Shown here piece by piece: positions 34,887 through 48,285 of a DNA stretch of 64,000 nt. The notes beneath the pieces were generated by a model. That model was given only the letters and a program-made list of their open reading frames with translations. It did no database searches and was not told the origin of the DNA. This DNA comes from Escherichia coli (GTDB taxonomy: Bacteria; Pseudomonadota; Gammaproteobacteria; Enterobacterales; Enterobacteriaceae): assembly GCF_024298765.1 (NCBI RefSeq), contig NZ_CP101210.1; one strand, given 5' to 3'. How positions within the stretch are numbered: the stretch's first letter is position 1; each line of letters starts with the position of its first letter. The position numbers and the translations under genes are program-made.

Positions 34887-36560
34887 ATGAATTCACCTGT
34901 CGCGGCATGTTCAGCGACCAGCGCCGGACAGAAATATCGCTTTTTCTCAATTATTATGAAAATTAATCTTCCGTTCATACACTGGTCACGGATTAGCAAT
35001 GATAAGCGCCTCGTGTTATCAGTGGTTGTCTTTACCCTTTCTAATCTCCTTGTATCCTCAGGAGCGCATCTGATTTACCGGATATTATTCTTTATCCTGG
35101 CACTTCTTATTATTAAGGCAATGAAATCGATTACGTTGCGTTTGATTCTTGCCTTCCCGTTCACATTACTGACTGCTGCAGATATCAGTATCAGCCTGTA
35201 TTCATGGTGTACATTTGGCACAACATTTAATGATGGTTTTGCAATCAGTATCCTTCAGACAGATCCTGATGAAGTAATAAGAATGTTCAGGATGTATGTT
35301 GTTTATGTTATCGCATTTATTATCCTCTTTTTATTGTTCTTCTGTTCAGCAATAAATAAAACGTCCTCATTGCCATCGGAAAAGGTCACGGTAATTACAT
35401 TTTTATTGTTAATTACAGTAACGTTATATTCTTCCTTCCAGTTTGCGTTGAAGAAACAGTATCAAATAAATGAAGTTGATCCTTACATAGTCGCTTCCCG
35501 GTTTGCCACATATACCCCTTTCTTTAATCTGAACTATTTTGCACTGGCCGCAAAGGAGCATCAGAGATTAATGACGATTGCTGATACCATACCTCACTAC
35601 GATCTGGTGATTACGGATAACAACACTGACGTATTTGTTCTGGTGATTGGTGAATCTGCAAGGACTGATAACATGTCCATTTACGGGTATTCGCGCCCTA
35701 CCACACCAGAGCTTCAGAAACAGAAATCACGACTGAAACTGTTCACTCAGGCAATCAGTGGCGCACCTTACACCGCGCTGGCTGTTCCACTGGCGTTATC
35801 TGCCGATAGTGTACTGCATCATGATATCCGTAATTACCCTGATAACATTATCAACATGGCGAATCAGGCGGGGTTCGATACCTGGTGGCTCAGTGCGCAG
35901 TCCGCTTTCCGACAGAACGGAACGGCTGTGGCCAGTATCGCCATGCGGGCCAGAAACAGAATTTATGTCAGAGGCTATGATGAGTTACTGCTCCCACACC
36001 TGGCTGAAGCACTGAACAGTAATCCGGGGAGCAGGAAACTGATTGTTCTGCATCTGACGGGCAGCCATGAACCGGTTTGCAGTAACTGGCCCAGAGATAA
36101 AGCCGTGTTTAAACCGCTGGATACAGAAGAAGTCTGTTACGATAATTCCATTCATTATACCGACAGTTTGTTGGGACAGGTTTTCACCATGCTGGAAACG
36201 CGTCAGGCATCCGTCATGTATTTTTCAGATCACGGTCTGGAGTATGACCCGACAAAAGAACATGCCTATTTTCATGGTGGAATAAAACCCAGTCAGCAGG
36301 CTTATCATGTTCCGATGTTTATCTGGTACAGCCCGGCACTGGGAGAGCATGTCGATCGCCAGACGGTGAACAGCGTTTTTTCCACTGCGTATAATGATTA
36401 TCTGATTAATGCATGGATGGGCGTAACCAGACCGGCTCAACCGAAAACGCCGGAGGAGGTGATTACCCGCTGGCAGGGGAAATCCGTGGTTTTTGATGCC
36501 AGTCATAACGTGTTTGATTACAAAGTATTACGAAAGAACTTTAATGAACTCCAGGAATAA
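34887..36560 (+). CDS. phosphoethanolamine transferase, sulfatase superfamily (YhbX/EptA-like)
   Basis: N-terminal TM helices plus motifs VLVIGESARTDNMSIYGY, HLTGSHEP, YFSDHGL; close to remembered E. coli YhbX; start may be Met at 34956. Confidence 0.75.
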   Translation: MNSPVAACSATSAGQKYRFFSIIMKINLPFIHWSRISNDKRLVLSVVVFTLSNLLVSSGAHLIYRILFFILALLIIKAMKSITLRLILAFPFTLLTAADISISLYSWCTFGTTFNDGFAISILQTDPDEVIRMFRMYVVYVIAFIILFLLFFCSAINKTSSLPSEKVTVITFLLLITVTLYSSFQFALKKQYQINEVDPYIVASRFATYTPFFNLNYFALAAKEHQRLMTIADTIPHYDLVITDNNTDVFVLVIGESARTDNMSIYGYSRPTTPELQKQKSRLKLFTQAISGAPYTALAVPLALSADSVLHHDIRNYPDNIINMANQAGFDTWWLSAQSAFRQNGTAVASIAMRARNRIYVRGYDELLLPHLAEALNSNPGSRKLIVLHLTGSHEPVCSNWPRDKAVFKPLDTEEVCYDNSIHYTDSLLGQVFTMLETRQASVMYFSDHGLEYDPTKEHAYFHGGIKPSQQAYHVPMFIWYSPALGEHVDRQTVNSVFSTAYNDYLINAWMGVTRPAQPKTPEEVITRWQGKSVVFDASHNVFDYKVLRKNFNELQE

Positions 36561-36703
36561 TTCGTTAAAGTAATTTACGACTCTATTCTTTTTTAAAGGA
36601 AACTTTCAGAAAATGCCCCCAGGGCGATAACCTGGGGAAGGGGGACTGTGTTATTACTGGTGGATAAATTATTACTTGTTTGAAAGATACACTAATGCAA
36701 TAT

Positions 36704-37723
36704 CTACTGATGCTGGATGCTTGAGTGTTTCATTCCTGCTGCTGAAAACGGCAATATCCAGGGCCAGACATATTCACCGTTAATATTTCTGCATTTCTGT
36801 ACAATTTCCTCAGAAAGTGTCTCATCAATTCTTTCCCGCAACAGCTTCTGCTGTCTTAAAATGCTTTCGCATATTTCGAAATCATCTTCCTGCATCAGCA
36901 TTTCGGCGCATTTAATGATTTCTGCTCGTTCATGCAGCACAGAGGAATGGTTATAGAGCCAGTTTACAAACAGCAATGCTTCCGGATATTGTCCCCATAA
37001 TGGTGAGTATGTTGCATAGTAATCTTCTGCCGTATCCAGAGAGCCGGAGAAGTTATGCCGCACAGCAAGTGGAAATGGATGCAAATTTCCGCACAGCATT
37101 TCCGCGATGTAAGTGTTTGTAGCAAAGCCATGACGAAAAGCTGTGGCAGCCTTAACATGTTCCCCATTCAGAAAATGCAGAAGACCAAGTTCATACCAGT
37201 AAGGTGAAAATTCATCAGCATGCTCTTTCAGTACACTGAAGGCTTGCTTATGATCGCCTGTTCGTAACAGTTCTGAGCCCAACAACCAGCGGGCACCCTG
37301 ATTATCTTCAGGATTGTATGCCAGTATTTTATCAGTGAGCATAACCGCATCCTGATGACGCTGTAAGTGCACATTTGCGAGAATTGTTGCATAAAGCGCG
37401 CGCAGATAAGGGCGGTTTTCGGGATGCATCCAGATGATTTCACCACTGAAACTTTCCGGGATGAGACGATTACCTGCCGCCAGTCCTTTAAGAGCGGCGT
37501 TCAGTGCCTTACGCGGGGCATTCTGCTCCAGAAATGCATATGCCAGATGAGCGTGTATATCAATAAAGTCAGGCTCCTGTTGAGCAAGGCGTCTGAGTTT
37601 GTTGATATAACCCGTCTCACTGATTTCATCAGTGTCGTATGCATCAAGCACTTCTTCAAACTCCCCCAGTAATGGGCCAAACCAGGTATCCGGAAATACG
37701 AAACGACCCTGGTTATTGTTCAC
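36704..37723 (-). CDS. TPR-like hypothetical protein, probably 5'-truncated by IS1 (listed start is GTG abutting the IS1 end)
   Basis: 339-aa ORF whose frame stays open into IS1 at 37733; helical-repeat-like sequence; no family recognised. Confidence 0.45.
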   Translation of the reverse strand: MNNNQGRFVFPDTWFGPLLGEFEEVLDAYDTDEISETGYINKLRRLAQQEPDFIDIHAHLAYAFLEQNAPRKALNAALKGLAAGNRLIPESFSGEIIWMHPENRPYLRALYATILANVHLQRHQDAVMLTDKILAYNPEDNQGARWLLGSELLRTGDHKQAFSVLKEHADEFSPYWYELGLLHFLNGEHVKAATAFRHGFATNTYIAEMLCGNLHPFPLAVRHNFSGSLDTAEDYYATYSPLWGQYPEALLFVNWLYNHSSVLHERAEIIKCAEMLMQEDDFEICESILRQQKLLRERIDETLSEEIVQKCRNINGEYVWPWILPFSAAGMKHSSIQHQ

Positions 37724-37787
37724 TTCAAAGCGGGTGATGCTGCCAACTTACTGATTTAGTGTATGATGGTGTTTTTGAGGTGCTCCA

Positions 37788-38063
37788 GTGGCTTCTGTTT
37801 CTATCAGCTGTCCCTCCTGTTCAGCTACTGACGGGGTGGTGCGTAACGGCAAAAGCACCGCCGGACATCAGCGCTATCTCTGCTCTCACTGCCGTAAAAC
37901 ATGGCAACTGCAGTTCACTTACACCGCTTCTCAACCCGGTACGCACCAGAAAATCATTGATATGGCCATGAATGGCGTTGGATGCCGGGCAACAGCCCGC
38001 ATTATGGGCGTTGGCCTCAACACGATTTTACGTCACTTAAAAAACTCAGGCCGCAGTCGGTAA
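37788..38063 (+). CDS. insA: IS1 protein InsA
   Basis: 91 aa [48 protein letters not shown]... Confidence 0.9.
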
Positions 38064-38425
38064 CCTCGCGCATACAGCCGGGCAGTGACGTCATCGTCTG
38101 CGCGGAAATGGACGAACAGTGGGGCTATGTCGGGGCTAAATCGCGCCAGTTCGCCCGGATGTTGGGACTTGAACCGAAGAACACGGCGGTGCGGAGTCCG
38201 GAGAGTAACGGCATAGCAGAGAGCTTCGTGAAAACGATAAAGCGTGATTACATCAGTATCATGCCCAAACCAGACGGGTTAACGGCAGCAAAGAACCTTG
38301 CAGAGGCGTTCGAGCATTATAACGAATGGCATCCGCATAGTGCACTGGGTTATCGCTCGCCACGGGAATATCTACGGCAGCGGGCCAGTAATGGGTTAAG
38401 TGATAACAGGTGTCTGGAAATATAG
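37982..38425 (+). pseudogene. chimeric ORF: IS1 InsB N-terminus (56 aa) fused in frame to IS2 InsD C-terminus
   Basis: [16 protein letters not shown]...GAKSRQ then [34 protein letters not shown]...NRCLEI; junction at CGCCAG 38143-38148. Confidence 0.75.
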
Positions 38426-39002
38426 GGGCAAATCCACTGCATGACAAAGTCATCGGGCATTATCTGAACATAAAACACTATCAATAAGTTGGAGTCATTA
38501 CCGACGAAGCGATAGCGATAATGACTGAAAGCGGAAAAATAAAAACAAATTGAATAATGTGTTTGGTAATGAATTTATCGGGGGGAATTGGGCATATCTA
38601 CCGCTTACGTCGAGCCGCTCACACCCGGTCAATGACCTGACAATCTCCCGGCAAGTCCCGACGTCGGGACTTGCGCCCCTGACACCGAAAAATAGCAGGA
38701 ACCCGCTCGCTACGGGTCCTCAGCTCAGTGCAAACCTGACTCAGCTCCTGCATTGCATCCCCGAAATTACCACACTCAGTACTTCATCACCTGCCACCAA
38801 TACCCGTGTCAGTCCTTCGTGACCTGACGCAATTACCCGACTCAGAGCTTCAGAGTCAGCCGCCGGTACCTGCCCGGTGCTCGCCCCTGCGCAACCAAGA
38901 TAAATCGACCATTGGCAGACTGCGATCATTCGTATGCATCGCTGATGACGCGCCCGAAAAACGCGTTAATGTAAGTGTGGAACAATACTTTGTTACTATG
39001 CA

Positions 39003-40397
39003 TCAAAAAAAGTATTTGAAACGTAATCGGGCACCGTAACGATCATCGGTAATGTCACAATTACTATATCTACAGTTACTATCCAGAATTGAGTAATAAG
39101 CCCCGAGGTAAATATTAAAGTTCTCCATATCCATCACATTAGCAAACTGATAAGATGCATGAATGGTGTGAATGTTGTATATTCCTTCACCATCAATCCA
39201 GCAACCATTATTACACACGACACCACTAAATTCATCAATCTTATTATGTGCGTAGATATAACCCAGTTCGAAACGTTTCCACAGAGCATTAATACTGGCA
39301 GTGAAATCTTTCTCATTACTGGCATCCAAATAGGCGGTATTAAGAGTAACCACGATGCCATTTTCCGGATCTGTTTTCAGACCGTTCCATGTCATGCTAA
39401 TACCATAACCGGAACGATTGGACTGATCGACAAAATTCCCCTTATTATCGGTATAGCCATAAGCATTTTTTACCACGTTCGCTTCCATCGCTGCGGAGAC
39501 TGTGAATTCTTCCGTTGGCGACCAGGCAATTACCGGGCGCAGATAAGCGACATTTTTCTGCTGCTCCATATATCGTCCATGATAATTACCGTTATTATAT
39601 AAAGATGTTCCGTCTTCAAGTAACGTGTTTAACTCAAAATACCAGTTATCGAGTTGTTTACTGATGAGGAAATTACCACCAGCGTCAGAACGACCGCGTC
39701 CCTCTTTCATCATATAGATATAACCACGGCCATCAGCATAAATATCATTAGCTGTATTACCGGAATACTCAATGAAAGTATCCTGATTTAGAGGGAACAT
39801 ATCGTAAGCTTCAAAACGACCGACTTTCACTTTCCACTCGTCATCTTTTCCAAAAAAGAATAATGCATCATCAATATTCACTGAACCGTGCATATCCGCC
39901 AGTGGTTGTGCTGAAAATCCAGCGAAATAACCATTATCAAGCTTACGGGTACCGTCAAAACCTAATAGAATACGGCCATTAAGGTCCCACCGTTCATTCA
40001 CTGACTCACTGTTCGCCCCGGAACTTATCATTACTAACTGACCGGGTTTACTGGCAGCATCTATATTAAACTCCACATCACCATAAAACTTCAAATCATT
40101 GTAACCAGAGAGCAGAAAACCTGGAGAAGATGTTTTTTCTTTTGTTGACTCAACTACTGCATAGCTGTTAGCATCTTTTTTATTCTGCTCTGAACTAATT
40201 TGACGTATTTCAGAATGTTGTTCTATATCAAAACTCTTTAACATTCTTTCTGCTTTTTCCGCCCTTTTTTCTGCAGCTTCCAGGCGTTCTTCCAGCAATG
40301 CCATTCTTTGTTCAAGCGTTAGCCCCCCTGTTTTTGCTGCACACGCATTGTATTCCAGTAATAAAAAAAGAGATAAACCCAAAAGTAACTTATTCAT
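39003..40397 (-). CDS. rafY: raffinose-inducible outer membrane glycoporin
   Basis: 464 aa with signal peptide, coiled-coil N-extension, C-terminal ...RFKYFF; last gene of raf operon. Confidence 0.8.
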   Translation of the reverse strand: MNKLLLGLSLFLLLEYNACAAKTGGLTLEQRMALLEERLEAAEKRAEKAERMLKSFDIEQHSEIRQISSEQNKKDANSYAVVESTKEKTSSPGFLLSGYNDLKFYGDVEFNIDAASKPGQLVMISSGANSESVNERWDLNGRILLGFDGTRKLDNGYFAGFSAQPLADMHGSVNIDDALFFFGKDDEWKVKVGRFEAYDMFPLNQDTFIEYSGNTANDIYADGRGYIYMMKEGRGRSDAGGNFLISKQLDNWYFELNTLLEDGTSLYNNGNYHGRYMEQQKNVAYLRPVIAWSPTEEFTVSAAMEANVVKNAYGYTDNKGNFVDQSNRSGYGISMTWNGLKTDPENGIVVTLNTAYLDASNEKDFTASINALWKRFELGYIYAHNKIDEFSGVVCNNGCWIDGEGIYNIHTIHASYQFANVMDMENFNIYLGAYYSILDSNCRYSNCDITDDRYGARLRFKYFF

Positions 40398-40591
40398 TTT
40401 ACCCCCTTAAATAAAAACAAATGTGGGTACTCTTATATTCTCTGTATCAACACAAAATACCATTCATATTCTTCACCAGACTGGTATATATAATCGCAAC
40501 ACATTACCAAAAGCACACAGCAAAGATAATTAATGTGTACTGGCAAAGTAATGACAGATAATGTCAGAAAAAATACTGATATCGATATGTC

Positions 40592-42022
40592 TCAGGTCAG
40601 CATCCATAAAGTGCCATCAGTTAATATCGCATCGCCATGAGCGGCATATAACGATAATTGTCTCGAGTCCGCTTGCGGATAAATACGACTTGATAAGGTT
40701 GCCTCACCATCGTTAACAAACACTTCAACAGATGAACGATCCAAGAAAATACGAAGAGTCAGATATTCTGTATCAGGAAGTTCAACACTGCGGTAACCAT
40801 CCAACCCTTCCTCAGGGTAATAGCGCCACAGTACCAGTCGCCCGGCCTGATTATCCACATAAAGTCGCAGACCGTCTCCAAGGCGGACGCCATAGTGCTC
40901 CGCATGACTGTCAACCGTATGCCACGTCACCAATAATTCTGCGGCCTGTACATTTTCGGTCAGTAATTGCAAACCCTGTAACCTTACAGGGGATAATGGC
41001 TGGCATTTTTTGCGCAGAGATTCGACTTCACGCACAGGTCGCTGGCACAGCCGGCCATCGCGCTCAAAAACCTCTCTGGGCAGCGTCAGACATCCTGCCC
41101 AGGCTTCACTGCGGGTGGGCACGGGTGAATCCCACATATTCATCCATGCCATAATGATACGCCTGCCGTCCTCAGCCAGCATGGACTGTGGAGCATAAAA
41201 GTCATGACCATAATCCAGCTCTTCAAATCCCCCTTTCAGCGCAAAGACAGAACCAGGCTTCCAGCTCCCTGCCAACACACCGCTCTGAAAAAGGTTACGG
41301 AACCGATAACCGGAAGGGGGCATCCCCTGTGGTGAGAACATCAGCCAGTGAAAATTACCACACCTGAAGAAATCGGGGCATTCCCACATATAACTTTTTC
41401 CGGCTGCGGAATGAGCAAGAACATGCTCCAGATGCCAGTCCCGCAAAGATGTCCCGCGATACAACAGAACTTGCCCATTGTCAGAAGCGTCCCGGGCACC
41501 AATGACCATCCACCAGGAGCCGTCTTCGTGCCAGACTTTGGGATCACGGAAATGCATTATACCTTCCGGAGGTGTCAGCACACAGCCCTGCTTCTCAAAG
41601 TGAATACCATCATGACTTGTAGCCAGACACTGTACTTCACGGATAATGCTGTCATTACCACGATCATCGAGACAAATATGACCAGTATAAATAAGTGATA
41701 GCACGCCATCATCATCCACGGCACTCCCTGAAAAACAGCCATCACGATCATATTTATCTCCGGGTGCCAGCGCGATAGGTTCGTGTTGCCAGTGCAACAT
41801 GTCGGTACTGGTGGCATGCCCCCAGTGCATTGGCCCCTGATATGCGCTTGCAGGATGATGCTGGAAGAACGCATGGTAACGCCCATTGAAGTAAATAAGG
41901 CCATTTGGATCATTCATCCAGCCGGCAGGTGGAGCCAGATGAAAAATCGGGTACCAGGCATTACCACGACGTGCGCAAAGTTTTTCAAGGGCAGACTGTG
42001 CCAAAGCAAGACGCTGTTTCAT
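40592..42022 (-). CDS. rafD: raffinose invertase / sucrose hydrolase (GH32)
   Basis: 476 aa; motifs HLAPPAGWMNDPNG, RDPKVW, MWECPD. Confidence 0.85.
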   Translation of the reverse strand: MKQRLALAQSALEKLCARRGNAWYPIFHLAPPAGWMNDPNGLIYFNGRYHAFFQHHPASAYQGPMHWGHATSTDMLHWQHEPIALAPGDKYDRDGCFSGSAVDDDGVLSLIYTGHICLDDRGNDSIIREVQCLATSHDGIHFEKQGCVLTPPEGIMHFRDPKVWHEDGSWWMVIGARDASDNGQVLLYRGTSLRDWHLEHVLAHSAAGKSYMWECPDFFRCGNFHWLMFSPQGMPPSGYRFRNLFQSGVLAGSWKPGSVFALKGGFEELDYGHDFYAPQSMLAEDGRRIIMAWMNMWDSPVPTRSEAWAGCLTLPREVFERDGRLCQRPVREVESLRKKCQPLSPVRLQGLQLLTENVQAAELLVTWHTVDSHAEHYGVRLGDGLRLYVDNQAGRLVLWRYYPEEGLDGYRSVELPDTEYLTLRIFLDRSSVEVFVNDGEATLSSRIYPQADSRQLSLYAAHGDAILTDGTLWMLT

Positions 42023-43299
42023 CAGTTAATCTCCGAATGCGCTGCAGGGGCTTTTTCTACAGAAGGGTGTACGCTCCCGCGGGAAGAACTCAGCGTGAAA
42101 ACTGATATCACGGTAACAGTCAGAGCAATCATCCCGAGCACAAAATACGTATTCTGGAATCCCATACGATCATACAGGTGGCCGGCAAAGGTAGAGAGAA
42201 GTATTGCAGCAAGTTGTTTGGAAAACTGAAAACCTATTAAATAAACGGTCGCTGACAGTCGGGTGTCAAACACTGCCGTAATATATTTGAACGCCCCAAC
42301 CAGCAAAAATGGAACTTCAAGAGCGTGAAGCATTTTCAGAATCACCACTTCTGTCGCGGTGGTGGCAAAAGCAGAACCGGTAATGCGGATGGTCATAATT
42401 CCCCCCGCAACAAGCAGGGTATTTTTGGCACCAATGCGATGAATTATCCATGGTGTACAGAACATGATAATGGCATTACAAATCTCCCCCGCAGTGGTAG
42501 CAAATCCGAATGCTTTTATTCCTGCCTGAGGAGTGTCAAAGAATGAACGAAAAAATGTGGCAAACTGCTGATCAAATACATCATAGACACAGGCCACACC
42601 AATCGTGTAGAGAACAAACATCCACATCTGACGCATGCGAAACAGGCTGAAGACCATTCTGGTCGAAATCAGGGAAGAATTGGCACCCAGTGTATTCATA
42701 ACCATTGCCGTCTGGCTGGTACTGGGGCGCGCCAGAAACAACAGAAGAAGCAACAATAATGCGCTTCCTGACCCCATCCAGAAAACCAGAGAAGGATCGA
42801 CATTAAAAAGCATTCCAGCCATAGCCGCACATAACGCCCAGCCCAGACACCCGAACATCCTCGCTTTACCGTATTCAAATCCACGACTGCGACTGACCCG
42901 CTCTATATAAGCTTCAATAGCTCCGGCACCTGCAGAAAACACAAAACCAATAAAGACACCGCCAGTCAGTGCGCCTGCCCAGATATTGAAGCGCAGCAGG
43001 GGCGCAAATACATATAAAAAAAAGGGGGCGAAAAATACAAGTAACAGGCTGATACTCCAGATCAGGTTTTTTTTCAGTCCCAGGCGATCTGATATGACCC
43101 CAAGCAATGGCTGGAAACTGATGGCAAACAGAGAAAGACATGAAAAGACTATACCTGTATCCGTTTTACTCAGTCCGACCACATCGGACAGCCATACAGG
43201 CAAAAACGGAAAACAGGTTGCCATGATGAAAAAGTAGAGAAAGAAGAACAGACCGAAAATCCAGAAATCGGGATTTTTATGCGTACTTGCAGAATTCAT
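42022..43299 (-). CDS. rafB: raffinose permease (LacY-family MFS symporter)
   Basis: Start at MNSASTHKNPDFWIFGLFFFLYFF (GAGGG RBS); LacY-like throughout. Confidence 0.85.
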   Translation of the reverse strand: MNSASTHKNPDFWIFGLFFFLYFFIMATCFPFLPVWLSDVVGLSKTDTGIVFSCLSLFAISFQPLLGVISDRLGLKKNLIWSISLLLVFFAPFFLYVFAPLLRFNIWAGALTGGVFIGFVFSAGAGAIEAYIERVSRSRGFEYGKARMFGCLGWALCAAMAGMLFNVDPSLVFWMGSGSALLLLLLLFLARPSTSQTAMVMNTLGANSSLISTRMVFSLFRMRQMWMFVLYTIGVACVYDVFDQQFATFFRSFFDTPQAGIKAFGFATTAGEICNAIIMFCTPWIIHRIGAKNTLLVAGGIMTIRITGSAFATTATEVVILKMLHALEVPFLLVGAFKYITAVFDTRLSATVYLIGFQFSKQLAAILLSTFAGHLYDRMGFQNTYFVLGMIALTVTVISVFTLSSSRGSVHPSVEKAPAAHSEIN

Positions 43300-43361
43300 T
43301 ATTCTTACCCTCACGGGATAATATTGAGAAACAGGACGGAGCTGAGGCTCCGTACCTCTCT

Positions 43362-45488
43362 TCACACAGCTCTTTCAAGTGCTATCAAAATCGCACTCTC
43401 CGGATCCAGTACGGGGAGCTGAATCCCTCCCTGTGCCAGCCATTCACCACTGGCCTCAAGGCTCTGATTCATCCAGACAGGTAATTTGCGCATGGTATGA
43501 CCGCCTTCACCAACCACCTGGAGGTCCGGGTGATCAATAACCCGAAGCCGGTAACGCACTTCCGCCGCCAGACCGGGAAAACGAAGTATGCCTGGTAAGG
43601 TGTAATCCGGCATTGCAAGCTGGCTGATCATAAAAAGTGCCTGAGACTGATCAGGGCTGACGACTCCCTGAACCTGTATCGAAGGATCTGGCATATCCAC
43701 ACGCCAGAGAACTCCTGTATGAATCAGTTGTCGCCATTCTTTATAGAGCAAGGCATACCGGCGATAACCGTCAGATTCCTTCGCATCTGCGGCCACCGGA
43801 TCCAGCTCCAGCCCCATATGGCCGAACAATGCCGTCAGCCCACGAAAAGCGATGCTGTGCTGCCGGAAAGTTGCATGGCAGCGGCGATGGCCAATATGCG
43901 CCCCCATCACCTCAGGAGGGAAAAAGTAACTCATGCCACGTTGTATGGTGCAGCGCTCCAGGGCATCATTATTGTCAGATGCCCAGAACCGGTGTGTGCG
44001 TTTCAGGACTTCGAAGTCAATACGCCCCCCACCGGAAGCACAGGACTCAAACTCAACATGTGGAAAACGTTCACGGAGGAGATCAAGCAATCGATAGAAC
44101 TGACGGGTCTGTGCATCTGCTGCCGCACGGCCTTCATGCCCTGCCTGTACAAGCTCACGATTCATGTCCCATTTCACATAATCAACCGGATGTTCTCCCA
44201 GTAACCATAAGAAACGTTCATAAATGTAAGCAAAGGCCTCTGGAATATTCAGGTTAAGAACATACTGATATCTTCCGGTTGGCTGGGAATATCCAGGCAT
44301 TGACAATACCCAGTCAGGATGAAGACGAAACAGGTCAGAATCCGGGTTAATCATTTCCGGCTCAACCCATATGCCAAATTCCATACCGAGAGATTTCACA
44401 TGTTTAATAACCGGCATCAGCCCGTTCGGGTATTTCTGTTCATCGGTATACCAGTCGCCCAGAGCCGCGCGGTCATCGTTACGTCCTTTAAACCAGCCAT
44501 CATCAATAATGAAACGTTCAACGCCCAGTGCTGCTGCACGCTCAGCCATCTGCATGATGTAATCAGGATTGTGATTGAAATAAATACCTTCCCAGGTATT
44601 GAGATGTACAGGGCGGGGTTTTTGCTCAGGGAAACGGATAATTTCATCACGCAAAAAACGATGGTATTGCTGACTCATTCCATTCAGGCCATCCGCAGAG
44701 TGGCAGGCATATAGCCACGGGGTGTACAGGGTTTCATTCTTCCTGAGAGCCTTCTCACCCGGCATCCACAGAGCCTCAGCCTGAACGTAACGCCTGCCGT
44801 CAGTTTTTGCCTCACATCTCATGCGGTGATTTCCACTCCACCCCAGATGCACAGCCCACACCTCTCCCTGTTGTTCCGAGAAGCCTGGCGTGCCGACAAT
44901 CAGCGCCGGAAAATGCTCATGAGATGTCCGCCCTCTGCGATTTTCCAGAACAAAAGCATCATGAGTGAGACGTACCCTGTGCGGCTGAAATTCACGAGTC
45001 CAGCGTCCGTGAAAAGCCATGACTTCTTCCGCACGTTCCGCTAAAGGTAAAGTGATGGCGAAACGATTTATCTGCCAGTCCCCCTCTCTGAGGTTGGTCA
45101 GTGCATGACGAACTTTCAGAATTCCTGATGGCGTCATCACCAGCTCGCTGACCAGACGCAGGCCGGCTACCGAATCTTCACTGGTAAGTCTCAGAGTGTT
45201 TTCGGTATGTTCCACGTCAACTGTATAAAAAACAGGAGATGCATCCAGCCCATTCCTGTGTCCTTCCAGTCCCGGAGAGCTAAAAAGTCCCAGGGCATTT
45301 TCAGCCATCAGTGTTAGTGGCGTATCAATATCCAGACGACCATTCGCAACCGGTCTTTCCAGGCTGGCACAGTCATCCGGTGAGAAATGTTTCAGTGCAG
45401 AGCCCCACCAGATAATTTCTGCATGTGGACGGGTTTTAATAATTAAATCAGAGCGAGGACTGCTCAGTCTGCAGTACTTTGAAACCAT
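43362..45488 (-). CDS. rafA: alpha-galactosidase (GH36)
   Basis: 708-aa ORF with GH36-like catalytic region (KWDMN, CASGGGR). Confidence 0.85.
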   Translation of the reverse strand: MVSKYCRLSSPRSDLIIKTRPHAEIIWWGSALKHFSPDDCASLERPVANGRLDIDTPLTLMAENALGLFSSPGLEGHRNGLDASPVFYTVDVEHTENTLRLTSEDSVAGLRLVSELVMTPSGILKVRHALTNLREGDWQINRFAITLPLAERAEEVMAFHGRWTREFQPHRVRLTHDAFVLENRRGRTSHEHFPALIVGTPGFSEQQGEVWAVHLGWSGNHRMRCEAKTDGRRYVQAEALWMPGEKALRKNETLYTPWLYACHSADGLNGMSQQYHRFLRDEIIRFPEQKPRPVHLNTWEGIYFNHNPDYIMQMAERAAALGVERFIIDDGWFKGRNDDRAALGDWYTDEQKYPNGLMPVIKHVKSLGMEFGIWVEPEMINPDSDLFRLHPDWVLSMPGYSQPTGRYQYVLNLNIPEAFAYIYERFLWLLGEHPVDYVKWDMNRELVQAGHEGRAAADAQTRQFYRLLDLLRERFPHVEFESCASGGGRIDFEVLKRTHRFWASDNNDALERCTIQRGMSYFFPPEVMGAHIGHRRCHATFRQHSIAFRGLTALFGHMGLELDPVAADAKESDGYRRYALLYKEWRQLIHTGVLWRVDMPDPSIQVQGVVSPDQSQALFMISQLAMPDYTLPGILRFPGLAAEVRYRLRVIDHPDLQVVGEGGHTMRKLPVWMNQSLEASGEWLAQGGIQLPVLDPESAILIALERAV

Positions 45489-45526
45489 AAGACATTCTCC
45501 TTTCTCAGGGATGCCTTACTGTTGAT

Positions 45527-45561
45527 CCGAAACGTTTCGGGTATCAACCAAAACGTTTCGG
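45527..45561 (-). promoter_or_regulatory. putative RafR operator pair (two LacI-type palindromes) in rafA promoter
   Basis: CCGAAACGTTTCGG (45527-45540, perfect) and CCAAAACGTTTCGG (45548-45561) between rafR stop and rafA start. Confidence 0.55.
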
Positions 45562-45583
45562 ATATGTGAGCTGGATAAAAAAA

Positions 45584-46594
45584 TCAGGAGCAAGGAGGAT
45601 GAATCGTCTTTCCCGGATAAAATACCGGGTTCCAGACAACCTGTAGTGGTTTTGATGATGAATCAGTAATTATCTGATATATCATCTCGGAAATCTGGCG
45701 ACCAACGAGGCTTCGTGTTGACTGAATAACTGCAGCCACATCCAGCTCAATAATACTGTCCTGTGGCAAACCATCATATACAACCAGAGATACCGCATCT
45801 TTTCCTGAAAGACGACCGCTCAACTGCAGTGCCATGGCAGCACCATCTCCACTCAGGTCATTGTCAGTAATAATAGCTGTTGGTGGTATCGGTAGTGACA
45901 TTAACTCCATCACGGCCTGATATCCTGCTCGCCGTGTGGGAGAAACCAGCCGCAGCCATGTATCTTCCAGTTCATGCTCATTCAGTGCATCAAGCCATCC
46001 CTGACGTCTTGCAACAACATAGCTATGTGAAGTGTCTTCACTCAACAATGCAATACGTTTATGTCCCAAAGCAATCAGTTTCTGGGTTGCCTGTCCAGTC
46101 CCGGCATGATTATCAAAGTCAAACCACGCACAGGGCAGACCAGATGGTACCCGACCAAGAGCCAGAAATGGAATACCTGCTTTATGAAGGTGTGTGATAC
46201 GGGGATCGTCATCCAGAGTGTGTGCAATGATGAGAGCATCAACCCTGCGACTTTCAACAAGCCGCATATAGCTGTGGCAATCGGCATGCTCATCATCAGC
46301 TATCAGTAGTAAGTCAATATCATGGTGAGCAAGTTCCCGGCTGATGCAACTGACCATATCCATAAAAACACCACTGTTAAATGGCACATCACGTCCAGGA
46401 TAAACCAGACCGACAGCATCGGTTTTACCGGTTTTGAGTCTTCTTGCCTGAGTATTAGGACGGTAACCGCGTCGACGAGCTTCAGCTTCCACCCGTGCAC
46501 GGGTGGAAGCTGACACATCTGCATAGCCTCCAAGAGCCCGACTGACAGTGGTGACAGAAACTCCGAGTGCAGTGGCAATCGCCTTAAGTGACAT
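45584..46594 (-). CDS. rafR: LacI-family raffinose operon repressor
   Basis: 336 aa; HTH MSLKAIATALGVSVTTVSRAL. Confidence 0.8.
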   Translation of the reverse strand: MSLKAIATALGVSVTTVSRALGGYADVSASTRARVEAEARRRGYRPNTQARRLKTGKTDAVGLVYPGRDVPFNSGVFMDMVSCISRELAHHDIDLLLIADDEHADCHSYMRLVESRRVDALIIAHTLDDDPRITHLHKAGIPFLALGRVPSGLPCAWFDFDNHAGTGQATQKLIALGHKRIALLSEDTSHSYVVARRQGWLDALNEHELEDTWLRLVSPTRRAGYQAVMELMSLPIPPTAIITDNDLSGDGAAMALQLSGRLSGKDAVSLVVYDGLPQDSIIELDVAAVIQSTRSLVGRQISEMIYQIITDSSSKPLQVVWNPVFYPGKTIHPPCS

Positions 46595-46743
46595 ATTATC
46601 TCCTGCTAATTATTATAGTAGACCGTCCCCCTAAATCTCCAGACAACCAATATCACTTATTGTAAGTTAACGGAATCCCTCTGATCTGTAAGATCAGAGG
46701 GAAAGGTTATTGATTGTGAGAATAATTTCAGGACAAAGTGTAA

Positions 46744-47928
46744 TTAACTCTCCTGGATGGAAAGTGAATCAATGTAGTCAGCGTACCATTGCATCATTTC
46801 ACGGCGACCATCGAGATACAGGGCATGATTATAGGTACCCCTGATGGAATTTTTATCCACATGAGCTAACTGCATTTCAATCCAGGCAGAATTAAAGCCC
46901 TGTTCGTGCAGAATGGTACTCATGGTGTGACGAAAACCATGACCGGTTGCCCTGCCATCGTAACCGATACGTTTGAGCACCATATTGATGCTGGCTTCGC
47001 TCATTGGCTTGTTGATATCACAACGTCCCGGGAAAACCAGCCGGTATTGTCCGGAGAAAGTTTTGAGCTGCAGCAGAATGTCAGTGGCCTGTCGTGACAG
47101 TGGTACGACATGTTTACGTCGCATTTTCATGCGGCTTTCAGGGATTGTCCACAGGGCATTATCAAAATCAATTTCTGACCATTCAGCGGACCGTAGTTCA
47201 ATCGTTCTGAGGCCTGTCAGAAGCAGCAGATTTGTCGCCATGCGGGTAACAGGACTGCCATGATATTCAGCGAGCTTCCGGAGAAAAACAGGGAGCTCAT
47301 CTGCTCTCAGGTGGGGGAAATGTGCAGCTTTTGGCGCCGCCAGCGTACTGGTCAGTTCAGATGCCGGATTGACAGTGGCTCGTCCGGTGGCGATGGCATA
47401 ACGAAAAATCTGATTACAGTATTGACGCACCTTACGAAGTTTTTCCAGCGAGCCACGTTTTTCTATGCGGCGCAGAATTTCCAGCATTTCCAGCGGGAGG
47501 ATATCAGTAACGCTTCGTTTGCCCAGATACGGGAAAATATCTTTATCCAGAGCCTCCAGTACGCTTCTGGCGTAACTTTCAGACCATGACAAAGATTTAT
47601 GCTGATGCCATTCCGTAGCAAGGGCATGGAACGTATTGGTGGCAGAGATTTTCTGAGTGAGTTTTTCCTTTCGCTTCTTTTCGCCCGGGTCGCCACCTTC
47701 GGAGATAATTTTTCGGGCATCGTCGCGTTTGATTCTGGCTTCAGCAAGGGAGACGTCGGGATAGACGCCGAGGGCCAGTTTTTTCTCTTTTCCTGCTATC
47801 CGGTATTTAAGCCGCCAGTAGCGGGCACCCGTGGTTTTTACCAGCAGATATAAACCACGTTCGTCAGAGAGTTTATAGTCTTTTTCTTTAGGTCTGGCTG
47901 TTTCGACCTGTCTGGCTGTAAGTGCCAT
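46744..47928 (-). CDS. int: P4-type tyrosine integrase
   Basis: Start MALTARQVETARPKEKDYKLSDERGLYLLV (AGGAG RBS); C-terminal catalytic region HGFRHT...Y; adjacent to tRNA-Phe. Confidence 0.85.
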   Translation of the reverse strand: MALTARQVETARPKEKDYKLSDERGLYLLVKTTGARYWRLKYRIAGKEKKLALGVYPDVSLAEARIKRDDARKIISEGGDPGEKKRKEKLTQKISATNTFHALATEWHQHKSLSWSESYARSVLEALDKDIFPYLGKRSVTDILPLEMLEILRRIEKRGSLEKLRKVRQYCNQIFRYAIATGRATVNPASELTSTLAAPKAAHFPHLRADELPVFLRKLAEYHGSPVTRMATNLLLLTGLRTIELRSAEWSEIDFDNALWTIPESRMKMRRKHVVPLSRQATDILLQLKTFSGQYRLVFPGRCDINKPMSEASINMVLKRIGYDGRATGHGFRHTMSTILHEQGFNSAWIEMQLAHVDKNSIRGTYNHALYLDGRREMMQWYADYIDSLSIQES

Positions 47929-48104
47929 ATGGGGGCTCCTGAAACTGACTGAACACAATGAGCCCCCACCGGTGCCCCCAATGAACGCTTGATTGAGAGA
48001 GAGTTCAGTAGAGTTCGGTGGAGTTCAGGATGTTCAGATTGCTTGTAACGATGTGATTATACTTGAGTTTCGTGGAGTTCGGGAGATGAATCTGGAAGTG
48101 AAAG

Positions 48105-48180
48105 TGGTGCCCGGACTCGGAATCGAACCAAGGACACGGGGATTTTCAATCCCCTGCTCTACCGACTGAGCTATCCGGGC
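48105..48180 (-). tRNA. pheV: tRNA-Phe (anticodon GAA)
   Basis: Reverse complement reads GCCCGGATAGCTCAGTCGGTAGAGCAGGGGATTGAAAATCCCCGTGTCCTTGGTTCGATTCCGAGTCCGGGCACCA; pheV rather than pheU inferred from neighbouring yqgA-speC. Confidence 0.95.
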
Positions 48181-48285
48181 AACGGGGCGCATTAAACCTG
48201 ATTCGCCTCGTCTCGTCAATCAAATTTCTTCAATTTACTGCAGACTGCACAATCTATCATCACTTTGCCGCTATTGCACGCATTG

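What the first reader, a model, noticed from the sequence alone, without database searches (positions are those of the whole stretch)
45527..45561. Tandem LacI-type operators CCGAAACGTTTCGG and CCAAAACGTTTCGG in the rafA promoter
Two near-identical 14-bp palindromes 21 bp centre-to-centre lie between rafR and rafA. This fits repressor binding at twin operators as described for the raf operon.
Basis: partly seen in the sequence, partly recalled or inferred. Interest (0 to 1): 0.2.

Follow-up and report, generated by a model that had tools for sequence, protein, structure and literature searches.

The report
Twin RafR operators at raf promoter

Summary
Confirmed and already known. CCGAAACGTTTCGG (45527-45540, perfect palindrome) and CCAAAACGTTTCGG (45548-45561) lie exactly where stated, 21 bp centre to centre. 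They sit in the 95-bp gap between a LacI-family repressor gene (rafR, 46594..45584) and a GH36 alpha-galactosidase gene (rafA, 45488..43362). Both genes are on the minus strand and are followed by rafB, rafD and rafY.

On the sense strand the two sites flank a -35-like hexamer, TTGATA. A CRP-like site abuts the distal palindrome, and a weak -10 (AACAGT) follows the proximal one.

The pair, its spacing and its position are conserved in every raf lineage examined:
- plasmid lineages at 99, 87, 86 and 76% nucleotide identity;
- a Klebsiella plasmid whose RafR is 65% identical;
- 48 Enterobacterales species.
The 7-bp spacer and the flanking coding DNA diverge freely.

The literature describes two adjacent raf operators bound by RafR, and RafR double sites 21-22 bp apart.

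Most likely mechanism: two RafR dimers sit on one face of the helix and block RNA polymerase at the -35 region until melibiose or raffinose releases them.

The only local twist is that this copy lies in a chromosomal island at a tRNA-Phe gene rather than on a plasmid. Interest is low.

The parts
45527..45540 (.). Promoter-proximal operator, CCGAAACGTTTCGG. A perfect 14-bp palindrome with a central CG, at about -28..-15 if +1 is near 45512.
   Evidence: The 14-mer is CCGAAACGTTTCGG in 46 of 47 species loci; 10 of its positions were fixed and 2 restricted to W (A/T) by the search pattern, but the leading CC was not constrained. Kept in all plasmid lineages.
45548..45561 (.). Promoter-distal operator. 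Sense strand CCGAAACGTTTTGG (+ strand CCAAAACGTTTCGG), with one broken symmetric pair, at about -49..-36.
   Evidence: The imperfect form ...TTTTGG is kept in 45 of 47 species although the search pattern allowed C or T there.
45542..45547 (-). -35-like hexamer TTGATA (5 of 6 to TTGACA), lying in the 7-bp spacer TTGATAC between the two operators.
   Evidence: Read. The spacer varies among relatives but mostly begins TT(G): TTGATAC, TTGGCAT, TTGTTAC, TTTGTAT. The assignment as -35 is inferred.
45518..45523 (-). Candidate weak -10, AACAGT (3 of 6, with A2 and T6), 18 nt after TTGATA, inside the invariant block ATCAACA(G/C)T.
   Evidence: block conserved in 47 species. The promoter scan did not call it at its threshold. 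Inferred; the transcription start was not mapped here.
45562..45583 (-). CRP-like 22-mer (core TTTTA-N6-TCACA, 8 of 10 to TGTGA-N6-TCACA) abutting the distal operator, with its centre about 60-61 bp upstream of the inferred start.
   Evidence: At this fixed offset the match averages 7.2 of 10 over 53 sequences, against at most 3.8 at 26 other offsets. GATCAC is invariant.
45497..45502 (-). rafA ribosome-binding site AAGGAG, 8 nt before the ATG at 45488.
   Evidence: GGAG is invariant in alignment A2.
45584..46594 (-). rafR: a 336-aa LacI-family repressor with recognition helix VTTVSR and hinge YRPNTQARRL. It has no LacI-type tetramerisation tail.
   Evidence: 332/336 identical to the pIP1206 copy. 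The end of RafR relative to LacI is shown.
43362..45488 (-). rafA: a 708-aa GH36 alpha-galactosidase and the first gene of the regulated operon.
   Evidence: Melibiase, GH36 N- and C-terminal domains.
42022..43299 (-). rafB: oligosaccharide MFS permease. The start is taken from the RefSeq annotation of the 99.9%-identical locus L001; the mechanical ORF runs to 43365.
40592..42022 (-). rafD: GH32 sucrose/raffinose hydrolase (invertase).
39003..40397 (-). rafY: glycoporin.
   Evidence: Pfam PF16966, Porin-like glycoporin RafY, E 3.5e-148.

Best explanation
The two palindromes are the twin operators of the raffinose (raf) operon, equivalent to O1 and O2 of the classical plasmid system. A dimer of the LacI-family repressor RafR, encoded immediately upstream, binds each 14-bp site. 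By homology with other LacI-family proteins, the helix-turn-helix reads each half-site CCGAAAC and the hinge-helix leucine inserts at the central CpG.

The centres are 21 bp apart, which is two helical turns, so both dimers lie on the same face of the DNA. They bracket the -35 hexamer (TTGATA) and cover the spacer down to about -15. RNA polymerase therefore cannot occupy the CRP-dependent promoter of rafA-rafB-rafD. An alpha-galactoside inducer (melibiose or raffinose) releases RafR. CRP bound just upstream of the distal operator then activates the weak promoter.

Shown here: the sites, their spacing, their location, their gene neighbours and their conservation. Taken from the literature: that RafR binds two adjacent operators and responds to melibiose. 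Inferred: the exact -10 and transcription start, the CRP site, the dimeric state, and any cooperativity between the two dimers.
For: Sites and spacing:
- Both sites and their 21-bp spacing are in the sequence.
- They lie in the 95-bp rafR-rafA gap of a complete rafR-A-B-D-Y cluster.

Conservation:
- The intergenic region is identical in pIP1206.
- Both sites and the 21-bp register survive in 87%, 86% and 76% nucleotide relatives. They also survive in a K. quasipneumoniae plasmid where only this segment still aligns.
- A scan of 100,044 species genomes found the twin site in 55 loci. 48 of these are Enterobacterales with rafR upstream and rafA about 38 nt downstream.
- Columns not fixed by the search pattern are conserved (CC before each core), while the 7-nt spacer drifts.
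- A CRP-like site is kept at one fixed offset.

Match to what is published about RafR:
- The RafR recognition residues V-T and the lack of G at half-site position 6 match the published description of RafR sites.
- The central CG goes with a hinge Ala/Leu, and RafR has ...QARRL.
- RafR ends before LacI's tetramerisation segment.
- The literature describes 'adjacent raf operator sites' and 'two operators' (titles), double RafR sites 21-22 bp apart, and melibiose as ligand.
Against: - No binding, footprint or transcript data exist for this allele. Its RafR is only about 86-88% identical to the studied type.
- The promoter scan found no sigma-70 site at its threshold, so the -10 and +1 assignments rest on conservation and spacing only.
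- The primary papers could not be read, so the published operator coordinates were not compared base by base.
- Ravcheev et al. infer obligatory cooperativity, whereas the 1990 title speaks of 'successive binding'. The mode of occupancy is unsettled.
- The species set was retrieved with the motif itself, so it cannot show how many raf loci lack it.
Confidence: 0.93

Rival explanations
1. The main function is structural. The two sites, together with their outer AT, form a 39-bp hyphenated inverted repeat (16-nt arms, 7-nt loop). This could fold as an RNA hairpin at the 3' end of rafR transcripts, acting as a terminator, insulator or stabiliser, or could extrude as a DNA cruciform.
For: - Inverted repeat I1 has 16-nt arms that are 94% complementary.
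- Read-through RNA folds into a 16-bp stem at -35.3 kcal/mol, z = -4.2.
- In the pS84-1/Salmonella lineage the two sites changed together and are exact reverse complements of each other: CCGAATCGTTTCGG and CCGAAACGATTCGG.
Against: - The hairpin is an automatic by-product of two copies of one palindrome.
- No U tract follows it on either strand.
- It lies upstream of the inferred rafA start, so it is absent from raf mRNA.
- Other lineages break the inter-arm pairing without compensation: L021 has distal A6T only, and K. quasipneumoniae has proximal CA for CC.
- The paired change in pS84-1 is equally expected for two-fold symmetric protein binding.
- The hairpin does not explain the LacI-type half-site or the central CG.
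Confidence: 0.04
2. The sites are bound mainly by another LacI-family regulator of the host, such as PurR or CytR, whose operators also have an AAACGTTT core, rather than by RafR.
For: The core AAACGTTT with a central CG is shared by many LacI-family operators (general family pattern). The same core 21 bp apart also occurs next to a 29-31% identical LacI homologue in Rhodobacterales.
Against: - The twin site travels with rafR on plasmids across Escherichia, Klebsiella, Salmonella and Shigella, and in 48 species it always lies directly after rafR.
- The half-site has C, not the family-typical G, at position 6, which is the feature published for RafR sites.
- The literature assigns the two raf operators to RafR.
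Confidence: 0.02
3. The repeat is a chance occurrence with no function.
For: Single 14-bp near-palindromes are as common as expected by chance in this window.
Against: The same palindrome recurring within 21 bp is expected about 1.7e-5 times per window (my estimate). The pair is conserved across 48 species while neighbouring bases drift.
Confidence: 0.005

Closest known systems
[quoted passage not shown]
   Same: - Gene order rafR-rafA-rafB-rafD(-rafY).
- Two adjacent near-identical palindromic operators between rafR and rafA, 21 bp apart.
- A LacI-family repressor with the same recognition helix.
- Melibiose-type induction.
Plasmid pP136-4, whose RafR matches the studied protein (328/337), has the sites at the homologous position.
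   Different: - This is a different allele, about 86% identical in DNA and about 86-88% in RafR to the studied type.
- Six substitutions lie in the first 60 residues of RafR, none in VTTVSR.
- The proximal site is a perfect palindrome here but TCGAAACGTTTCGG in pP136-4, and the -35 is TTGATA against TTGATG.
- It lies in a chromosomal tRNA-Phe island rather than on a plasmid.
- The published coordinates themselves could not be read.
RegPrecise RafR regulog of Enterobacteriales (Ravcheev et al. 2014, PMC4052901)
   Same: That regulog is described as having only double sites 21-22 bp apart, interpreted as two cooperating dimers. This is the architecture seen here and in 48 species.
   Different: That regulog was built from 4 genomes and 8 sites anchored on Pectobacterium. 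The motif itself is not printed in the held text, so the comparison is by architecture only.
lac operon operators O1/O2/O3 with tetrameric LacI
   Same: A LacI-family repressor with a palindromic operator overlapping a CRP-dependent promoter, more than one operator per promoter, and a sugar inducer.
   Different: LacI is a tetramer that loops DNA between operators 92 and 401 bp apart (established knowledge). RafR lacks the C-terminal tetramerisation segment, and its two sites are adjacent and bracket the -35 hexamer. The half-site sequence also differs.
Double LacI-family sites in other regulogs (ScrR of Burkholderiales; a Rhodobacterales LacI homologue found here)
   Same: Two sites 21-22 bp apart. 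In L022 and L028 the cores CCGAAACGTTTCGG and GGAAACGTTTCGG lie 21 bp apart directly after a LacI-family gene.
   Different: The regulators are only 29-31% identical to RafR. In L028 the downstream gene encodes an ABC solute-binding protein, not an alpha-galactosidase. The sites lie downstream of a TTGACT-type -35 rather than around it.

Membership tests
LacI/GalR-family operator | A palindrome of about 14-18 bp with a central CG and AAnCGnTT-type core. | tested here: met
   CCGAAAC|GTTTCGG is perfect; CCGAAAC|GTTTTGG matches in 13 of 14 positions. The family pattern is described.
LacI/GalR-family operator | A cognate LacI-family regulator gene with an HTH and a hinge Ala/Leu lies adjacent. 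| tested here: met
   The Pfam LacI HTH (residues 3-47) and Peripla_BP_1 are present. The hinge is YRPNTQARRL. The gene ends 22 nt before the distal site.
LacI/GalR-family operator | The site overlaps or abuts the promoter of the regulated operon. | tested here: inconclusive
   The sites bracket a 5-of-6 -35 hexamer and lie 38 nt or more upstream of the rafA ATG. However, the scan tool calls no promoter and no transcription start was mapped.
LacI/GalR-family operator | The site is conserved at orthologous loci while its surroundings diverge. | tested here: met
   Alignment A2, and 47 species with a variable spacer and invariant sites.
LacI/GalR-family operator | Physical binding by the regulator, relieved by the effector. 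| not testable with these tools
   This is known only from the literature for the classical RafR (titles and ligand).
raf operon twin operators (O1/O2) | Location between rafR and rafA of a rafR-A-B-D cluster. | tested here: met
raf operon twin operators (O1/O2) | Two adjacent sites about 21-22 bp apart. | tested here: met
   21 bp here.
raf operon twin operators (O1/O2) | The repressor is RafR. | tested here: met
   The N-terminal 70 aa are identical to the published E24377A rafR entry. The protein is 289/337 identical to the RafR printed in PMC13056197 and 332/336 to the pIP1206 copy.
raf operon twin operators (O1/O2) | Base-by-base identity of position with the published pRSD2 operator map. 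| not testable with these tools
   The primary papers and the pRSD2 entry are not held. pP136-4, which encodes the studied RafR type, was used as a surrogate.
Intrinsic (Rho-independent) terminator | A GC-rich hairpin followed by a U tract. | tested here: not met
   A hairpin is present, but no T run follows on either strand and the scan calls none at the site.

The most novel reading that the evidence does not exclude
The two operators may be deliberately unequal and dual-use. The distal site keeps one broken symmetric pair (…TTTTGG) in 45 of 47 species, although a perfect site was equally retrievable. This suggests selection for a weaker distal operator, giving ordered or 'successive' occupancy, or for bases shared with the -35/CRP-alphaCTD region. 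In addition, the 39-bp inverted repeat formed by the pair may act in RNA as an insulating hairpin at the end of rafR transcripts.
Probability: 0.15. Interest if true: 0.25.

Novelty: already known. Interest (0 to 1): 0.1.

Why it matters
It matters little beyond annotation. The result confirms that this chromosomal island carries a complete raffinose operon that is probably normally regulated, with repressor, twin operators, a CRP-like site and a weak promoter. About 9% of complete E. coli genomes (466 of 5426) carry this region, on chromosomes (311 places) or plasmids (188 places). The cross-species footprint assembled here gives a clean picture of which bases of the raf control region are constrained. 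That could help anyone using RafR and its operators as a synthetic-biology part.

Tried and rejected
- Primary papers. I tried to read Aslanidis and Schmitt 1990, Aslanidis et al. 1989, Muiznieks and Schmitt 1994 and Ulmke et al. 1997 by PMID, PMC id and DOI. None is held. Full-text searches for raf operator, repressor and promoter terms returned mostly Raf-kinase noise.
- Promoter scan. It returned no sigma-70 site and only an unrelated terminator-like hit inside rafR. The -35 and -10 were therefore assigned by eye and by conservation.
- Cluster look-up. The look-up of RafR and RafA gave only generic names ('substrate-binding domain-containing protein', 'LacI family...'), with no 'RafR' label among the members listed.
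- Palindromy as evidence. I rejected it because 14-bp near-palindromes occur at the chance rate.
- Additional RafR sites. I looked upstream of rafR (autoregulation) and near rafY. Only 3-mismatch hits at about chance level appeared, and none was in a promoter position.
- Non-raf hits of the genome scan. The Treponema locus is a 21-bp tandem repeat, not an operator pair. The Halorussus, Planctomycetales and Caldilinea hits were not followed up.
- Hairpin or terminator reading. Considered and rejected as the primary function.

Full report
**Observation**

Reading the window shows CCGAAACGTTTCGG at 45527-45540 and CCAAAACGTTTCGG at 45548-45561 on the + strand. The two sites are 21 bp apart start to start and centre to centre.

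The first site is a perfect palindrome. The second has one broken pair. No other copy with 2 mismatches or fewer exists in the 64 kb. The 3-mismatch hits are at about chance level, and none lies in a promoter position.

Palindromy by itself is not evidence. 14-bp near-palindromes occur at the expected rate, 93 found against about 94 expected. What is improbable is the same palindrome twice within 21 bp. I estimate about 1.7e-5 such cases per window.

**Surroundings**

The genes are on the minus strand:

| Gene | Coordinates | Product and evidence |
|---|---|---|
| rafR | 46594..45584 | 336 aa; Pfam LacI HTH plus Peripla_BP_1 |
| rafA | 45488..43362 | GH36 melibiase |
| rafB | to 42022 | oligosaccharide MFS permease |
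| rafD | 42022..40592 | GH32 hydrolase |
| rafY | 40397..39003 | Pfam 'Porin-like glycoporin RafY' |

The 95-bp gap between rafR and rafA, read on the sense strand, is:

TGA-TTTTTTTATCCAGCTCACATAT-[CCGAAACGTTTTGG]-TTGATAC-[CCGAAACGTTTCGG]-ATCAACAGTAAGGCATCCCTGAGAAAGGAGAATGTCTT-ATG

- The 7-bp spacer contains TTGATA, a 5-of-6 match to the -35 consensus.
- AACAGT follows 18 nt later, inside an invariant block.
- A TGTGA-N6-TCACA-like element (8 of 10) abuts the distal palindrome.
- The promoter scan calls nothing at its threshold. That fits a weak, activator-dependent promoter, but it means the -10 and +1 are inferred.

**Identity with the raf system**

- The first 70 residues of the repressor equal the 'rafR' entry of E. 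coli E24377A in the supplement of Camas et al. 2010.
- The protein is 332/336 identical to the pIP1206 copy, and the intergenic DNA is identical in pIP1206.
- The RafR sequence printed in S1 Fig of PMC13056197, which cites the three original raf regulation papers, is 328/337 identical to the repressor of pig-ETEC plasmid pP136-4 (L004). The differences look like PDF-reading noise. It is 289/337 identical to the window protein.
- The window therefore carries a sister allele of the classical operon. The classical-type plasmid has the same twin sites at the homologous position.

**Conservation**

The region occurs in 466 of 5426 complete E. coli genomes, at 311 chromosomal and 188 plasmid places, and on 171-182 plasmids.

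Alignment of lineages at 99, 87, 86 and 76% nucleotide identity keeps both palindromes, the 21-bp register, the TCACA element and the ATCAACAGTAAG block. The same holds for a K. quasipneumoniae plasmid (RafR 65% identical) where only this segment still aligns.

A pattern scan of 100,044 species genomes found 55 loci. By my estimate about 0.3 would be expected by chance.
- 48 of the 55 are Enterobacterales, with a RafR homologue (about 65% identical) ending just upstream and a RafA homologue (about 72% identical) starting about 38 nt downstream.
- Columns not fixed by the pattern are conserved: CC before both cores in 47/47 and 46/47 loci, GATCAC upstream, and ATCAACA(G/C)T downstream. The spacer drifts: TTTGTAT, TTGGCAT, TTGTTAC and others.
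- The CRP-like match averages 7.2 of 10 at one fixed offset, against at most 3.8 at other offsets.
- Because this species set was retrieved with the motif, it shows breadth, not the frequency of loss.

**Literature**

The primary papers are not held. Their titles, as cited, are:
[quoted passage not shown] Other sources add the following.
- Ravcheev et al. 2014 state that the enterobacterial RafR regulog has only double sites 21-22 bp apart and infer cooperative binding of two dimers.
- Camas et al. note that RafR has recognition residues V-T and that its natural site lacks the usual G at half-site position 6. The half-site here, CCGAAAC, has C at that position.
- Francke et al. 2008 link the hinge Ala/Leu to a central CG. 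RafR has ...QARRL, and the sites have a central CG.
- In the S1 Fig alignment RafR ends before LacI's tetramerisation segment, so it is probably a dimer.
- From my own memory, not verified here: the 1990 paper describes the two operators as flanking the -35 box, and the 1994 paper places a CRP site about 60 bp upstream of the start. Both agree with what the sequence shows.

**Mechanism**

Two RafR dimers on the same helical face cover about -49..-36 and -28..-15. They bracket the -35 hexamer and so exclude RNA polymerase. The inducer (melibiose or raffinose) releases them, and CRP at about -61 then activates the weak promoter.

Cooperativity, relative affinities and the exact start site remain open.

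**Rivals**

The pair also forms a 39-bp hyphenated inverted repeat. In read-through RNA it folds as a 16-bp hairpin at -35.3 kcal/mol, z = -4.2.

This is a by-product of two copies of one palindrome. It has no U tract, lies upstream of the inferred rafA start, and is broken without compensation in some lineages.

One lineage (pS84-1/Salmonella) changed both sites together so that they remain reverse complements. This is compatible with a hairpin, but equally with two-fold symmetric protein binding.

Binding by another host LacI-family protein is unlikely, because the sites always travel with rafR. Chance is excluded by the conservation.

**Verdict**

The feature is an already known regulatory element in a new but very common genomic copy. 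Interest is low.

Noticed in passing
window 36380-48228 (tRNA-Phe at 48105-48180, integrase at 46744-47928): The raf cluster sits in an island of about 11.9 kb that is 99.9% identical to one in E. coli ECCNB12-2 (L001). There it lies at the tRNA-Phe next to dicD/dsbD (the pheU side). In the window the tRNA-Phe is flanked by a YqgA-like membrane protein, ornithine decarboxylase (speC-like) and nupG (the pheV side). The same island therefore uses both tRNA-Phe genes in different strains.
   Followed up: partly
window 45548-45561 and loci L008-L062: The distal operator keeps its single asymmetry (…TTTTGG rather than …TTTCGG) in 45 of 47 species, although the search pattern accepted either base. 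The two operators therefore seem to be kept unequal by selection.
   Followed up: partly
L005 (pS84-1) and L006 (Salmonella pIndS102), rafR-rafA gap: In this 76%-identity lineage the distal site is CCGAATCGTTTCGG and the proximal site CCGAAACGATTCGG. Each has lost one symmetric pair, but the two are exact reverse complements of each other, so the outer half-sites changed in concert.
   Followed up: partly
L022 2203-2237 (Phycocomes zhengii) and L028 10094-10128 (Meridianimarinicoccus roseus): CCGAAACGTTTCGG and GGAAACGTTTCGG lie 21 bp apart directly after a LacI-family gene only 29-31% identical to RafR. They sit downstream of a TTGACT -35-like box and upstream of a 454-aa ORF that matches an ABC solute-binding protein in L028 (no Pfam match in L022). 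The same twin-site design thus occurs in Alphaproteobacteria for a different sugar system.
   Followed up: partly
L020 330-530 (Treponema MAG): Several matches to the twin-operator pattern come from a 21-bp tandem repeat (GCCTTGGCCGGAATCGTTTCG and variants) inside overlapping ORFs. This is a false positive of the pattern search, not an operator array.
   Followed up: yes
L051 (Affinibrenneria salicis) 1815-1847: The twin-site pattern occurs with a 46%-identical RafR homologue and a 61%-identical RafB homologue in a different gene arrangement. No RafA match appears in the held 3.1-kb stretch.
   Followed up: no
window 34887-36560: The island also carries a phosphoethanolamine-transferase-family gene (EptA/CptA-like, with distant similarity to MCR models, well below their cut-offs), next to IS remnants and a TPR protein as annotated in L001.
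   Followed up: no
RefSeq annotations of the rafR gene: The same intact 336-aa repressor with a LacI HTH is named 'substrate-binding domain-containing protein' in many records and 'LacI family DNA-binding transcriptional regulator' in others. No NCBIfam model reaches its cut-off for it, so RafR is not named as such by the annotation pipeline.
   Followed up: partly
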